Shown: in pieces, positions 10,509 to 25,500 of the stretch
Numbering within the stretch: position 1 is the stretch's first letter
Layout: each line of letters starts with the position of its first letter
Assembly: GCA_963844035.1 (NCBI GenBank)
Contig: CAWJMT010000036.1
Span: forward strand, 1-64,000
DNA: 64,000 nucleotides
Direction: 5' to 3'
Source of the DNA: an uncultured Gemmatimonadales bacterium
Lineage (GTDB): Bacteria; Gemmatimonadota; Gemmatimonadetes; Gemmatimonadales; GWC2-71-9
Program-made: the position numbers

Positions 10509-13500
10509 GATCCCCTGCGGCCGCCGGGCGGGCGCCCCCCGCCAGGTGGAGCCTGCGGCGACGCTCTGCCAGTTGTCGAGATAGACCATCATCGCCGGGC
10601 TTTGCGCGGTAGCGCGGAGCAGGTCTGCAAACCGGCCCAACGCGAGCGGCCGGATGGTGTGCTCGACGTAGTCGGGGAGGAGAAAGCGGTCGAAGCCTTT
10701 TCCAAAGAACACGTTGAAGTGGTTCACCCAGAAATCAGTCATCACCTCGAGCAGCTGCTGCTCGGAGAGGGCGCCCCGCACGACCACCGTGGCGGCCACC
10801 TCGCCCGCGAGGCGCCGGCCCAGCCGCGCCTCGGGCCCTGGAGGATTTCGCGGGCCCATGCCGTCGGCGGCGAGTTCACTCGCGGCGCGCTCGCGGCGCT
10901 CGCGCCGCGCGGCGAGGAAGACCTTGGCCAGCGCGCGACGATCGTACGCGAGGACATCGATCTGGGACTCGCGCGCGCGGAGCGCGGCGTTGTCGAGCTG
11001 CGCGGGGTCGAGCTGGCGGTCGATCCAGTGCATCACACCCATTGCCGCCACCCGGTCCGCTTCTCCGGGGCGGGGGCCGTAGGCGAGCCGGTTCAGGGCG
11101 TGCAGCGCGGAGTCGTGCGGCGTGAGGGACGAGACCGGTGGGCGCTCGGGTGGCCGGAGCGGCGTGCCGCGTGGAAGCGGCACGAGCAACGCCGACAGCA
11201 TACCGAGAACGAAATGGCTCTTCATCGGGTTATATTGACGCACCGCACTCGAGGAAAGTTAAGCTCTGACCCCCCCGGCCCGATTCGTTTCCCACGGGAT
11301 CATGCCCAGTCCCAAGAGCCTGCTCTCGGGCGGCGAAACCAAGCCGCCCAGCTGGAGCGAACGGCTGCAGGCCCTCAAGTACGTCCCGCCGCTCCTCAAG
11401 TTGGTGTTCCAGACCCACCGCGGCTACACCGCGGGGATCCTGCTGCTGCGCGCGGTCCGATCGTTCATCCCGCTGGCGGTCCTTTGGATCGGCAAGCTGA
11501 TCATCGACGGTGTGATCGCCGCCGTGCGCACCCGGGCAGCCGGTGGAGAGGTGGACTGGTGGTATCTGGGCGGCCTGGTCGCGATCGAGCTCGCCGTGGC
11601 GGTCGGGGGTGAGGGGTTGGCGCGCCTGTCGTCGTTGCTCGAGAGCCTGTTGGGGGACCTGTTCTCCAACCGGATCAGTGTGCGCCTGATGGAGCACGCG
11701 GCCACGCTCGACCTGGCGCAGTACGAGGACTCGGAGACCTACGACCACCTCGAGCGCGCGCGCCGCCAGACGGTGGGGCGGATCGGCCTGGTGGCGCTGC
11801 TGCTCTCGACGGCCCAAGACCTGGTGACGCTCGTCTCGTTGGCAGCGGTGCTGGCCGTCCAGCTCCCCTGGCTGCTCGTGCTGCTGGTCATCGCGGTGGT
11901 GCCGTCGTTCCTCGGGGAGACCCACTACGCGGCGCTGGGCTATTCACTGCTGTTCTCGTGGACACCCGAGCGGCGGCTGCTCGACTACCTGCGCTATGCG
12001 GGCGCCTCGGACGAGATGGCGAAGGAAGTCAAGCTGTTCGGGCTGTCGGATTTCCTGATCGGCCGCTACGCCAAGCTGTCGGGTGAGTTCTACCAGGCGA
12101 ACAAGCGGCTCGCGATCAAGCGCAACGTCGTGTCGACGGTGTTCGTGACGCTCGGTACGCTCGGGTACTACGGCGCCTACGCCGTGTCGATCTACCTCAC
12201 GGTGCTGGGCCGATTCAGCCTCGGCGCGCTCACCTTTCTGGCCGGCTCGTTCCGGCAGAGCCGCGATCTGATCCAGCGCATCCTGTTGTCGCTGTCCCAG
12301 GTGTTCGAGCAGAGTCTGTATCTCTCCGATCTGTTCTCGTTTTTCGACGTGATGCCGCGCGTCACCTCGCGGCCCGGAGCGCGGCCGGTCCCCGTTCCGA
12401 TCCGGCGGGGTTTCGAATTCGAGGATGTCGGGTTTCGCTATCCGGGCTCGGACAAATGGGCGGTGCGGCACCTCTCGTTCGCGATCGCGCCGGACGAGCG
12501 GATTGCGCTGGTCGGCGAGAACGGCGCGGGAAAGACGACGCTGGTGAAACTGCTGGCGCGGCTGTACGACCCGGACGAAGGACGCATCCTGCTCGACGGC
12601 GTGGATCTGCGCGACTACGACCTGGTGAGCCTGCGGAAAAACATCGGCGTGATCTTCCAGGACTTCGTGCGCTATGACTTTGTCCTGAAGGAGAACATCG
12701 GTGTGGCGCAGGTGGATGCGCTCAACAACGACGAGCGGGTCCGGGAGGCGGCGCGGCGCAGCCTGGCCGACTCGGTCGCCAGCCGGCTCGCCGGCGGGTA
12801 CGATCAGATGCTCGGGCGCCGCTTCGACGGCGGCGTGGATCTCTCGGGGGGCGAATGGCAGAAGGTGGCCCTGGGCCGCGCCTACATGCGCGACGCCCAG
12901 GTCCTGATTCTCGACGAGCCGACGGCGGCGCTCGACGCCCGTGCCGAGTACGAGGTGTTCCTGCGGTTTGCCGAGCTGACCAAGGGCCGCATGGCCGTGC
13001 TGATCTCGCATCGGTTCTCGACCGTGCGGATGGCGGACCGGATCGTTGTACTGCAGGGGGGCGAGCTGGCCGACCAGGGGACACACGAAGAGCTGGTGGC
13101 CCGGGGCGGGTTATACGCGGAGCTGTTCTCCCTTCAGGCGGCGGGGTACCGCTAGCGGGCGGCCGCCGCGATCTTCGCCTTCGCTTCGGCGCCGGCCTCC
13201 GCGGTCAGGTCCTTCGGGCCGAGCTGCACCCCGATCTTCTGCAGGAACTCGTTGGGCGGTGTCCCGCCGGCGAACACCCACGTGTAGTCGTTCGGGATCA
13301 CTCGGGTTTCGCCAGCCACCTCCATCCGGACGGACTTCTCCCCGATCTCGACCGGCTGCGAATTGAAGATCACCTGGAGCTTGCCGTTCTTCGTGTACTC
13401 GGGCAGGCGGCGGGCGTTGCGGTCCTTGATTCGGGCGAATGCTTCTTTGCGATAGGAGAGTGTGACCCGGTTCCCTTTCTGGTGTGCCAGGCCCATCGCG

Positions 13501-22500: not shown

Positions 22501-25500
22501 GACCCAGTGCGTCGGGTGCCATCGCCCGAACTATCAGGCGGCCAAGAATCCCGACCACGTCGCCGGGGTGTTCCCGCAGGACTGTTCGCAATGTCATGCG
22601 ACCACCCTCTGGGCCAACGCCCGGTTCAATCATGACGCCGCCGGGTTCTCGCTCACCGGGGCACACCGCGCCATCACCTGCGCGCAGTGCCACACGGGGC
22701 CGAATGCGAGCGCCGGCACCCAGTGCCAGTCGTGCCACCAGCAGGACTACGCGGGGACCACCAATCCCGGCCATGCAGCGGCGGGGTTCCCCACGACCTG
22801 CCAGACCTGCCACTCGACGAGCAGCTGGAGCGGCTCGGCATTCAATCACGACGGCACCGGTTTCTCGCTCACGGGCGCCCACCGCACCGCGAGCTGCGCG
22901 CAGTGTCACGTCGGCGGTCACTACTCCGGTACGAGCTCCGCGTGTGTGTCCTGCCACCAGCAGGAGTACAGCGGGACTATCAACCCCGGCCATACATCCG
23001 CGGGATTCCCGACGACGTGCGAGACCTGCCACACGACCACCCGCTGGACGGGAGCGACGTTCAATCACACGTGGTTCCGGGTGCCGCATCACGGCGTCCG
23101 GAACTGCACCCAGTGTCACACGGCGGGTGCCAACTACGCGCAGTTCGACTGCACGACGTGCCACACGAAGAGCCAGACGGATCCGGACCACCGAGAGGTG
23201 AACGGCTACGTGTGGAACAGCACCAACTGCTACGCCTGTCATCGCCGGTGAGCCGGATGACTCGACGCGCCCGCTGGGCGGGACTGCTCGCATGCCTGGC
23301 AACGCTCGCCGCGCCGGCGGCCGCTCAGGACTCGGCCGCGGCGAAGACCGCGCGCATTACGTACCTCACGGGCGCCTCGGCGTACATCGACGCCGGAAGG
23401 TTGGACGGTCTGCGTGAGGGAGCGCGTGTGGAGGTCGTGCGTGGCGGTGAGGCCATCGCTGTGCTTAAGGTCGCATTCCTCGCGTCGCATCAAGCGTCGT
23501 GCGACATCGTCACTATGTCTGCCCCGCTGACGGTGGGCGACTCGGCGCGATTCCTGCCCGTGGTCACTCCGCCGGACTCAGCGCTCGCCGGGAAGCGCCC
23601 CCGCCCGGCGCCGCTCGTCGCCCGTCGCCCCGCCGTGCCGGTGCTGCGCGGTCGCATCGGCGCTGAGTATCTCGCGGTGGACCAGCTGGGCCTTGCCGCG
23701 GGCGGCTTCTCGCAGCCATCCCTCACGATGCGTCTCGACGGGCATCCGTTCGGCGCGCCCGCGGTCGCAGTAGCCCTGGACATGCGCGCCCGGCGCACTT
23801 ACGCGAACCTTGCGGACGGGACCGCGCTCACGGATGGACGCAACCGCGTGTATCAGGCCGCGCTCATGCTGGGAGCACCGGACCAGCCGCTCCGGGTCAC
23901 TGCCGGCCGGCAGATCTCCGCCAGCCTCGCCTCAGTGGGCATGTTCGACGGCGTGCTCCTGGAGTACAACGACAAGCAGTGGGGCGCCGGATCGTTCGCC
24001 GGCACGCAGCCGGACCCCGTCGAACTCGCCTTCTCGACCAGGATCGTCCAAGCGGGTGCCTACGTGCAGAGCCACAGCCGCGCGAGCGCTGCGTCGCACT
24101 GGGCGCTCACGCTCGGCGCCAGCGGCTCGTATGACAGCGGCCAGGCGAACCGCGAGTTCGGTTACGTGCAGGCGTCGTTTCTTAGCCCAAGGCTTTGGAC
24201 GTTCTTCGCGCAGGAGATCGATTACTATCGGCCCTGGAAGCTCATGACCGGCATGAGCTCGATCTCTCCTACCAGCACCTTCGCGGTGCTGCGATACCAA
24301 GTCACGAGGGCCGTCACGCTGGACGCGGGCTACGACAACCGCCGTAACGTCCTGCTGTATCGCGACGTCGCGAATCCGGCGACGGCGTTCGACGACACCT
24401 ATCGCCAGGGAGCATGGGCGGGGTGCTCCTTCCTATTCGGCCGGCGCTACTTGCTGGGTGTCGATGCTCGCTCGAGCAGGGGCGGCCCGGCAGGGCAGGC
24501 CGACGCCTATACGATGTCGTTCAGCACCAGCCAGATTCCCGCGATCAGGGCGAGCTTCCGGTCCCGCACCACGTGGTACTCGGGCCCCCAACTGACGGGG
24601 TGGCTGCAATCCGTCGCACTGGGCTTCGCCCCGAGCGGGCGACTGCACTTCGAGCTGAACGGCGGCGGGCGCCAGGAGCGGAACGTGCTGGTGGATCCCC
24701 CTGCCAACGCCTGGGTCACGTGGGTGGGCGGCGACATGGACCTGAGCATGGCGCGCTCCTGGTTCCTCATCGTCTCGGCGAACCACGAGAGCGGCACCCT
24801 CGACGGTAACAACCAGATCTATAGTGGCCTGAGCTATCGGTTCTGAGCGGACCCTACTTCAGGTAGCGCTCCCGCAGGATCCCCAGATGGTGCCGCTCGT
24901 GCCCGGCAATGATGTAGGCGAGGGCGCGCACTGAAACATCCTGGTTGTTGGCGAGGCCCCGCCGCGCGAATGCCTCCGGCTCGAACCCGCTGAACAGCGC
25001 GATCGTGGCGTGACGCACCACGTCGAGCTCGGCGGCGAGATCGGGCAGTGGGCGGGCGTCGAATTTCCCCGCTGGAGCGTAGACCTGTTCGTCGAATCCG
25101 GGCAGGGGCGTCTGATCGCCGCGAGCGAACCGCAAGGCCCGGTAGCAGAACACTCGCTCGCCGTCCATGATGTGCCCGACCACCTCTTTGATACTCCACT
25201 TGCCAGGCGCATACCGGTACAGTCCTCTCCCTTCCGCAATGCCGGCGAGCAAAGCCTGGGTCTCGTGTCGCTGGTCTTCGAGCGATGTCGATGAGGTTCC
25301 CGGTCGGGGACCTTCGACACATACCGCTCGTAGTTCGGAGCGTACTCGGAGCGTCGGGGCGGGGTATGGTGGGTCATCATGCGCGACTCCTTTCGATCCA
25401 GGCGGCCCACGTGTCCGGAGCGAGTCCGATGGTGAGCTCGCGCTGATGGCGCGTCAACGGCACGCGCAGCAGCAACGGCTCGAGACTGAGCTGTTCGAGC

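What a model noticed while it worked through the whole genome (the two positions that open the first line are those of the whole stretch)
13152..24846. NAD(P)H-to-surface electron conduit: Fd-flavoprotein, unannotated diheme-b membrane protein, 20/23/16-heme cytochromes a [...]
An unannotated block encodes a ferredoxin-TrxB-like flavoprotein (g03281+g03280), a membrane protein with two invariant His-x13-His pairs (g03282), three large multiheme cytochromes (59 CxxCH in all) and two beta-barrel partners. It travels as a unit and would link cytoplasmic NAD(P)H to the cell surface without a quinone step.
Evidence so far: CxxCH counts over frames: 20, 23 (split by a frameshift) and 16. The 16-heme gene is in 19 of 60 family genomes; in 7 of 7 fetched loci flavoprotein, membrane protein, 20-23-heme, 16-43-heme and barrel genes lie together at different chromosomal sites. 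H127/H141 and H300/H314 invariant in alignments of 8 and 30; no Pfam or NCBIfam family; 1150 homologs unnamed.
(Added by a program. Inside this text positions count along the whole contig: contig position 1 is position 1 of the stretch shown here. "Call 12" and the like, gene names such as g00115 and contig names such as C1 are that model's own, and its searches are not shown. The text may have been shortened before it was handed on; [...] marks where a part breaks off. The agent that wrote the report below was given it as the finding of a first reader that could run no searches.)

Follow-up and report, generated by a model that had tools for sequence, protein, structure and literature searches.

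The report
PCC3 cytochrome wire with NADPH flavoprotein
This block encodes a member of the predicted but untested 'PCC3' cytochrome wire across the bacterial envelope, plus an iron-sulfur flavoprotein that nearly always accompanies, and is sometimes fused to, the wire's inner-membrane protein, so the wire likely draws electrons from cytoplasmic NAD(P)H rather than from quinones as published models assume.

Summary
Observation confirmed: 59 CxxCH motifs (20, 12+11, 16), a five-helix membrane protein with two His-x13-His pairs, two outer-membrane barrels and a divergent ferredoxin-flavoprotein. The block is not new in kind. It is a PCC3 cluster (He et al. 2017), which already proposed the diheme-b role; all four parts are homologous to Gallionellaceae PCC3 genes. 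What I found in no paper is the fifth part. The flavoprotein co-occurs with the membrane protein in 64 of 64 genomes of a 301-genome phylum sample and 58 of 60 in a 121-genome Gallionellaceae sample. It is fused to it in 120 of 120 listed proteins (named ones Planctomycetota). Two related membrane-protein subtypes also pair with NAD(P)H flavo-iron-sulfur enzymes, one of an unrelated fold. Best reading: an NADPH-oxidase-like inlet passing electrons outward without quinone (0.6). Heme binding, docking and direction are untested; the complex prediction never ran. The frameshifts are probably assembly errors. This scan reported the same system before in other genomes.

The parts
13152..14514 (-). 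Membrane-anchored flavoprotein: N-terminal helix, two-cluster ferredoxin (second motif CxxHxxCxxxCP), YpdA/thioredoxin-reductase-fold FAD/NAD(P)H domain without CxxC. One gene, broken by a frameshift near 13992.
   Evidence: Pfam Fer4 and Pyr_redox_3. One ORF in 38 of 40 related loci. Nearest solved relatives YpdA/Bdr, TrxR and TrxR-type FNR. Motif census on 121 sequences. Related contigs in 3 of 4 runs lack one base at 13992.
14638..15621 (+). PCC3 inner membrane protein (IMP), 327 aa, five helices, two WX3HX13H motifs, SGxxG on helix 4, about 128-aa cytoplasmic insert; predicted diheme cytochrome b.
   Evidence: Model pLDDT 92.5. Its profile finds Gallionellaceae PCC3 IMPs at E 1e-32 to 1e-51. 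Motifs as defined in PMC5566968.
15618..17408 (+). 20-heme cytochrome c with signal peptide; inferred periplasmic PCC3 subunit; start overlaps the IMP stop.
   Evidence: 30 aa per heme. 27% identity over 597 columns, E 7e-53, to a 24-heme Gallionellaceae subunit.
17405..19294 (+). 23-heme (probably 24 with a CX4CH site) repeat cytochrome c; inferred outer subunit; frameshifts near 18365 and 19240.
19298..21837 (+). Outer-membrane barrel 1 with three N-terminal FlgT_C-like beta domains and Pro-rich linkers; frameshift near 20638 and probably at the start.
   Evidence: One related contig lacks a base at 20638. About 39% identical to barrel 2's family members.
22028..23251 (+). 16-heme repeat cytochrome c with signal peptide; second inferred outer subunit.
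   Evidence: 25 aa per heme, 40% T/S/A/G. E 3e-19 to a Gallionellaceae extracellular subunit (repeats inflate this).
23257..24846 (+). Outer-membrane barrel 2: one small beta domain and a predicted 22-strand barrel ending in Phe.
   Evidence: Model pLDDT 87.9. Foldseek matches to outer-membrane barrels, best E 3e-9. Profile match to Gallionellaceae PCC3 porins 97%, E 1e-10, 384 columns.

Best explanation
The block encodes a PCC3-type porin-multiheme cytochrome cluster plus a membrane-anchored iron-sulfur flavoprotein, and it likely works as an NADPH-oxidase-like wire that would pass electrons from cytoplasmic NAD(P)H through FAD, two iron-sulfur clusters and two predicted b hemes to periplasmic and outer cytochromes, probably without quinone. 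Shown: the genes, motifs, homology to PCC3, co-occurrence and natural fusion of flavoprotein and membrane protein. Predicted by models: the five-helix bundle and the 22-strand barrel. Inferred: heme b binding (H127/H300 on the cytoplasmic side, H141/H314 on the periplasmic side, from the positive-inside pattern), NADPH preference (GGGDSA and SYR motifs; their meaning is recalled), docking of the unfused pair, the location of each cytochrome, outward direction, and an extracellular acceptor such as Fe(III), Mn oxides or humics. Releasing the proton inside while electrons leave would be electrogenic.
For: (1) Genome co-occurrence. Phylum sample of 301: 64 of 64 genomes with a strong IMP match have the flavoprotein, 64 of 67 the reverse, 234 have neither (two weak IMP rows dropped). 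Gallionellaceae sample of 121: 58 of 60 both ways, 59 neither. (2) Adjacency: 40 of 40 IMP loci among 41 fetched; 67 of 80 cross-phylum loci, 40 of 46 with at least 6 kb on both sides; 21 of 30 Gallionellaceae PCC3 loci, and the genomes of the other 9 carry it elsewhere. (3) Fusion: 120 of 120 listed proteins have the flavoprotein followed by the IMP, 99 full length, linker median 19 aa, median pairwise identity 59%. 8 of 8 fused loci are followed by a 26-heme gene and 7 of 8 by a barrel of this family. (4) Other IMP subtypes also have NAD(P)H partners: the 310-aa type pairs with an 800-aa Pyr_redox/cNMP/Fer4 protein (18 of 18 genomes, 6 of 6 loci), and the 192-aa type with an FNR-fold/2Fe-2S protein (4 of 4 loci). 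(5) No CxxC in the flavin domain in 121 of 121 sequences, so it is not a thioredoxin reductase. (6) Fused IMP halves hit Ferric_reduct at E 1e-5, under its cut-off. (7) Precedent: the MsrQ heme is near -250 mV, too low for quinol, and is fed by a flavin reductase (PMC12525009). (8) Both PCC3 clusters of Sideroxydans ES-1 were downregulated on Fe(II) (PMC8788666).
Against: No biochemical data exist for any part. Fold matches of the IMP (4D2 Z 10.1, CybB Z 9.9, SpNOX Z 8.1) are under the level that means much for helical bundles, and CybB is a quinone-linked enzyme (recalled). The IMP of one PCC3 copy was upregulated in iron-oxidising Sideroxydans CL21 cells (10.1101/2025.02.27.639646). Six of 46 well-flanked loci have no flavoprotein within the fetched DNA. 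Genomes are related, so the counts are not independent. Three or four of the seven genes are frameshifted in this assembly.
Confidence: 0.6

Rival explanations
1. Published model: the IMP is a quinone-active cytochrome b that links the wire to the quinone pool. The flavoprotein would then be a side entrance, for example an NAD(P)H:quinone oxidoreductase, or a regulator.
For: Hypothesis of He et al. 2017. The best natural fold match is CybB. MsrQ binds ubiquinone.
Against: It does not explain the near one-to-one co-occurrence, the short-linker fusions, or partners of two unrelated flavoenzyme folds.
Confidence: 0.17
2. Same wiring, inward flow: electrons from low-potential external donors (reduced minerals, humics, electrodes or partner cells) reduce NAD(P)+ or ferredoxin directly for biosynthesis.
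For: Common in iron-oxidising Gallionellaceae (60 of 121 genomes). The CL21 IMP was upregulated with iron oxidation. TrxR-type FNRs are reversible (recalled).
Against: Most Fe(II) donors are too positive to reduce NADP+ (recalled). PCC3 was downregulated on Fe(II) in ES-1. The cluster also sits in Bacteroidota, e.g. an Emticicia oligotrophica plasmid.
Confidence: 0.15
3. In this organism the cluster is a decaying remnant and the frameshifts are real.
For: Breaks near 13992, 18365, 19240, 20638 and probably 19300. Absent from 3 of 3 same-genus genomes searched.
Against: Neighbouring EF-G and MFS genes are also split in mid-domain. The pieces remain 60-79% identical to intact relatives. Related contigs lack the extra base at 13992 and 20638 (relatives, not the same strain). 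rpoB is intact, so the errors are not everywhere.
Confidence: 0.08

Closest known systems
PCC3 porin-cytochrome c cluster (He et al. 2017, PMC5566968; Hoover et al. 2023, PMC10734462)
   Same: IMP, periplasmic cytochrome of about 20 hemes, repeat-rich outer cytochrome and porin, all four homologous. Same motifs and 25-30 aa per heme.
   Different: Published definitions list four genes and route the IMP to quinone; here and in the proteobacterial loci a flavoprotein is a near-constant fifth part. The window has two outer cytochrome-barrel pairs (3 of 40 loci). Barrel 2 is shorter (about 530 aa against 640-890 aa open frames). Its IMP falls in a non-proteobacterial clade.
PCC4 and porin-less cytochrome-IMP clusters (He et al. 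2017, Table S6)
   Same: IMP with two HX13H motifs next to an unnamed 'other redox protein' of 412-805 aa. My profile recovers 192-aa and about 310-aa IMPs next to 420-aa and 800-aa flavo-iron-sulfur proteins.
   Different: Small cytochromes (7-10 hemes in most), mostly no porin. The paper's text does not say what the redox protein is.
Ferric-reductase-domain family: NOX/SpNOX and MsrQ with Fre
   Same: Two HX13H pairs on helices 3 and 5, and a cytoplasmic NAD(P)H flavin module feeding a transmembrane heme pair.
   Different: The flavin module here is TrxR-fold with two iron-sulfur clusters rather than FNR-fold, and the acceptor would be a multiheme wire rather than O2 or MsrP.
YpdA/Bdr and TrxR-type ferredoxin-NADP+ reductases (7A76, 7A7B, 3LZW)
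   Same: FAD/NAD(P)H fold without CxxC.
   Different: 163 bits against a cut-off of 340 for TIGR04018. It has a membrane anchor and ferredoxin domain, and the usual C-terminal FAD segment appears to be moved in front (the alignment of that segment alone is not significant).

Membership tests
PCC3 | IMP of about 300 aa, five helices, SGxxG on helix 4, WX3HX13H on helices 3 and 5 | tested here: met
PCC3 | IMP homologous to proteobacterial PCC3 IMPs | tested here: met
   Profile A2 matches Gallionellaceae IMPs at E 1e-32 to 1e-51; 29 of 30 such loci have a large cytochrome downstream, with first subunits of 21, 24 or 27 hemes as in Hoover Table 1. Pairwise identity is only 17-23%.
PCC3 | Periplasmic multiheme cytochrome of about 21 hemes next to the IMP | tested here: met
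   20 hemes, E 7e-53 to a 24-heme subunit; location inferred from signal peptide and homology
PCC3 | Extracellular repeat-rich cytochrome, rich in T/S/A/G, low aa per heme | tested here: met
   23 and 16 hemes, 25-27 aa per heme, 38-43% T/S/A/G; extracellular location itself not tested
PCC3 | Outer-membrane beta-barrel porin in the cluster | tested here: met
PCC3 | Electron exchange with the quinone pool (hypothesis of the defining paper) | not testable with these tools
   No experiment found in the passages read
PCC4 | Three periplasmic cytochromes of 4, 5 and 10 hemes and no extracellular cytochrome | tested here: not met
   20, 23 and 16 hemes
Ferric reductase domain (PF01794; NOX, MsrQ) | Four His in two HX13H motifs on helices 3 and 5 | tested here: met
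Ferric reductase domain (PF01794; NOX, MsrQ) | Pfam score over cut-off or clear fold match | tested here: inconclusive
   Window IMP has no hit; 2 of 3 fused relatives scanned score 26 bits against a cut-off of 28; SpNOX Z 8.1
Thioredoxin reductase (TrxB) | Redox-active CxxC in the NADPH domain | tested here: not met
   0 of 121 sequences; TIGR01292 77 bits against 343
YpdA/Bdr (TIGR04018) | Score over the curated cut-off | tested here: not met
   163 against 340 bits

The most novel reading that the evidence does not exclude
PCC3 is a widespread, quinone-independent, NADPH-oxidase-like respiratory wire: the first porin-cytochrome conduit fed directly from cytoplasmic NAD(P)H. It would be present in thousands of genomes from more than ten phyla, and in iron oxidisers it would be an electron exit rather than the candidate iron oxidase it is listed as.
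Probability: 0.45. Interest if true: 0.85.

Novelty: new variant of a known kind. Interest (0 to 1): 0.6.

Why it matters
The characterised porin-cytochrome conduits (Mtr, Geobacter Pcc, Mto) connect to the quinone pool through proteins such as CymA, ImcH or CbcL (recalled). PCC3 is counted as a candidate iron oxidase in Gallionellaceae and Leptothrix surveys. An obligate NAD(P)H flavoprotein partner changes the likely input and direction. It would give abundant soil and sediment lineages (Gemmatimonadota, Acidobacteriota, Bacteroidota, Planctomycetota) a route for extracellular electron transfer that is not now credited to them. The natural fusion proteins make a one-gene test possible.

Tried and rejected
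Complex prediction of IMP with flavoprotein: the queue was full and no job ran, so docking of the unfused pair is open. Foldseek of the IMP model against the PDB: no match at E 0.001 or better. Sequence search of the IMP profile against solved structures: no meaningful match. Viral contigs: no relative. ESM Atlas: only unnamed or automatically named clusters. Sequencing runs: no RNA holder listed and no run holding half the words; no habitat claimed. The breaks near 18365 and 19240 were not among the insertion/deletion rows shown (19 rows hidden). Apparent fusions P0148, P0139 and P0141 were rejected as read-through of broken genes because they lack the second His pair; P0281 is a truncated IMP with a mis-called start and P0282 also has only one motif. 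A distance correlation between IMP and flavoprotein alignments (rho 0.44) is not used, as kin share history. The plain barrel HMM barely detected Gallionellaceae porins; only the profile-profile test did. Supplement searches for ES-1 genes next to PCC3 found nothing. Thioredoxin reductase, YpdA and PCC4 were rejected as memberships.
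Full report
Observation. A six-frame scan gives 20, 12+11 and 16 CxxCH motifs in 15618-23251, all on the + strand. Shuffles of that region give 0.3 on average, and the rest of the window has one. The gene order is flavoprotein (minus strand, 14514 to 13152), then on the plus strand membrane protein, 20-heme, 23-heme, barrel 1, 16-heme and barrel 2. The first three plus-strand genes overlap at their stops and starts. The membrane protein has five hydrophobic helices, two WX3HX13H motifs and SGxxG on helix 4. Its four His are invariant in alignments of 89 and 113 sequences. It has no curated family. Names of close homologues point to Gemmatimonadales. The genome holds five matches to the cytochrome c assembly family.

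Frameshifts. The flavoprotein, the 23-heme gene (twice) and barrel 1 are split. The flavoprotein is one ORF in 38 of 40 related loci. Contigs of related organisms lack one base at 13992 (3 of 4 runs) and at 20638 (1 of 4). Neighbouring EF-G and MFS genes are split in mid-domain too, while rpoB is whole. Assembly error is the likely cause; it is not proven for this strain.

What it is. He et al. 2017 (PMC5566968; passages) defined PCC3 as porin, extracellular cytochrome, periplasmic cytochrome and a conserved IMP with exactly these motifs, compared it to the ferric reductase domain, and proposed two b hemes exchanging with quinone. I tested homology directly. A motif scan of named genomes returned 120 loci from 2 of 64 parts of the collection (about 5300 stretches estimated); 119 are IMP homologues by my profile. 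The motif itself matches only about 67 of 89 rows of the alignment, so the sample is biased. Record titles span Pseudomonadota, Acidobacteriota, Bacteroidota, Ignavibacteria, Calditrichia, Zixibacteria, Eisenbacteria, Nitrospirae, Myxococcales, Planctomycetales and others. In 121 genomes of the family of G302 (a Gallionella record), the profile finds three IMP classes of about 300, 310 and 192 aa, matching the lengths in He's text and Table S6. The window's 20-heme protein matches a 24-heme subunit at E 7e-53, and its barrel family matches the Gallionellaceae porins at 97%, E 1e-10. The barrel 2 model has 22 strands at pLDDT 87.9 and matches outer-membrane barrels. The block is therefore a PCC3 member, from a non-proteobacterial IMP clade (FastTree, 113 rows), with a duplicated outer cytochrome-barrel pair seen in 3 of 40 loci.

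The fifth part. In the same 301 phylum genomes, 64 have a strong IMP match and 67 the flavoprotein; all 64 overlap and 234 have neither (rows G109 and G266, E above 1e-5, dropped). In the Gallionellaceae sample 60 have a PCC3-type IMP (110 bits or more), 60 the flavoprotein (E 1e-100 or better), 58 both and 59 neither. I fetched 40 of the phylum matches, chosen for long contigs, plus the Emticicia plasmid locus; 40 of these 41 hold an IMP, and all 40 have the flavoprotein nearby. Of 80 motif-scan loci with flanks 67 have it, 40 of 46 where at least 6 kb lie on both sides. Of 30 Gallionellaceae PCC3 loci 21 have it adjacent, and the genomes of the other nine carry it elsewhere. Its position varies: divergent upstream in 57 of 114 loci, downstream on the same strand in 46. 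These genomes are related, so no p-value is given.

Fusion and convergence. A search for longer forms gave a 739-aa protein with the complete flavoprotein followed by a complete IMP. Searching with it gave 628 hits, of which the best 120 were listed. All 120 carry both parts in that order, 99 are full length, 119 keep both His motifs, and the linker is 11-25 aa. The named ones are mostly Planctomycetota. Eight metagenome loci of such fusions are all followed by a 26-heme gene, seven by a barrel of the window's family and six by a 15-18-heme gene; the shortfalls end near contig ends. The 310-aa IMP class goes with an 800-aa Pyr_redox/cNMP/Fer4 protein (18 of 18 genomes), and the 192-aa class with an FNR-fold/2Fe-2S protein (4 of 4 loci examined). 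An NAD(P)H flavo-iron-sulfur partner, from two unrelated folds, is thus a property of the IMP family.

The flavoprotein. Among 121 sequences, 109 have an N-terminal hydrophobic helix, none has CxxC in the flavin part, 109 have GGGDSA, and 119 have His in place of the second Cys of the second ferredoxin motif, while that position in the first motif varies. The nearest solved relatives are YpdA/Bdr and TrxR-type ferredoxin-NADP+ reductases, under all curated cut-offs. It looks like an electron-transfer enzyme rather than a thiol reductase. NADPH preference rests on recalled motif meaning.

Mechanism. The IMP model is confident (pLDDT 92.5). Positive residues place the N-terminus, loop 2 and the long insert in the cytoplasm, so helices 3 and 5 run the same way and could hold one heme near each face, as in NOX. 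A fused flavoprotein would sit on the cytoplasmic side with a short tether. Fold matches are to a designed two-heme bundle, CybB and SpNOX, but at Z 8-10 they are inconclusive. The likely chain is NAD(P)H, FAD, two clusters, two b hemes, the 20-heme cytochrome, then outer cytochromes held in the barrels. Outward flow is favoured by the family precedent (MsrQ heme near -250 mV, not reducible by quinol; PMC12525009 section 10) and by downregulation of PCC3 on Fe(II) in ES-1 (PMC8788666). Against it, one PCC3 IMP rose with iron oxidation in CL21. Docking of the unfused pair could not be modelled.

Literature seen. PMC5566968: passages, and text of supplements 1, 5 and 7. Only page 1 of the figure file and the legend of Table S4 were readable, so Supplementary Figure 4 on PCC4 redox-gene domains, which could name a related flavoprotein, was not seen. 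PMC10734462, PMC11429942 and PMC8788666: passages and supplement term searches. PMC13386937, PMC13013709 and 10.1101/2025.02.27.639646: passages. PMC12525009: passages and part 1 of section 10. In the two defining papers 'flavo' does not occur in the main text. Nine searches (listings only for the rest) found no paper linking PCC3 to a flavoprotein; subscription journals are not covered.

Earlier scan notes. Eight notes on other genomes give the same reading. I looked them up after reaching the PCC3 and fusion results; they are not counted as support.

Verdict. A real, conserved cluster of a known predicted kind, with an undescribed and nearly obligate NAD(P)H flavoprotein partner that argues against the published quinone model. 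New variant of a known kind; interest 0.6.

Noticed in passing
G000:C36:166561-175102 (same contig, outside the window): A second multiheme cluster on the minus strand (5, 4, 14, 7 and 9 CxxCH open frames) next to a gene that reads like cytochrome b6; it has no IMP of this family.
   Followed up: no
L031 (NC_018749.1, 78197-89995): Emticicia oligotrophica plasmid carries the whole set (ccsA, IMP, flavoprotein, 23- and 40-heme genes, barrel), a culturable test system with its own heme-attachment gene.
   Followed up: partly
window 14514-13992 (-); 121 related flavoproteins: The second ferredoxin motif has His instead of Cys in 119 of 121 sequences, and the first varies (C, S, T, A), suggesting unusual cluster ligation.
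   Followed up: partly
L073 9073-14248; L224-L229: Porin-less modules of an 800-aa flavoprotein with cyclic-nucleotide-binding domains, a 310-aa IMP and a 9-10-heme cytochrome; possibly a nucleotide-regulated transmembrane electron path.
   Followed up: partly
L230-L233, about 8600-11200: 192-aa IMP lacking the cytoplasmic insert, preceded by an FNR-fold/2Fe-2S flavoprotein and followed by an 8-heme cytochrome: a split NOX-like unit.
   Followed up: partly
L148 12435-18806; L108 1636-7764; L101 from 7831: Open frames with 80, 70 and 67 CxxCH motifs in related clusters.
   Followed up: no
window 26422-27638 and 27595-29803: An MFS transporter and an EF-G gene are each split by a frameshift.
   Followed up: yes
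window 8333-11243 (-) and 11302-13155 (+): A DUF1800 gene with a downstream partner gene, and an ABC transporter whose stop overlaps the flavoprotein's stop, flank the block on the left.
   Followed up: no
G000:C31, C18, C10: rpoC matches lie on three contigs with overlapping coverage, hinting at contamination or misassembly.
   Followed up: no
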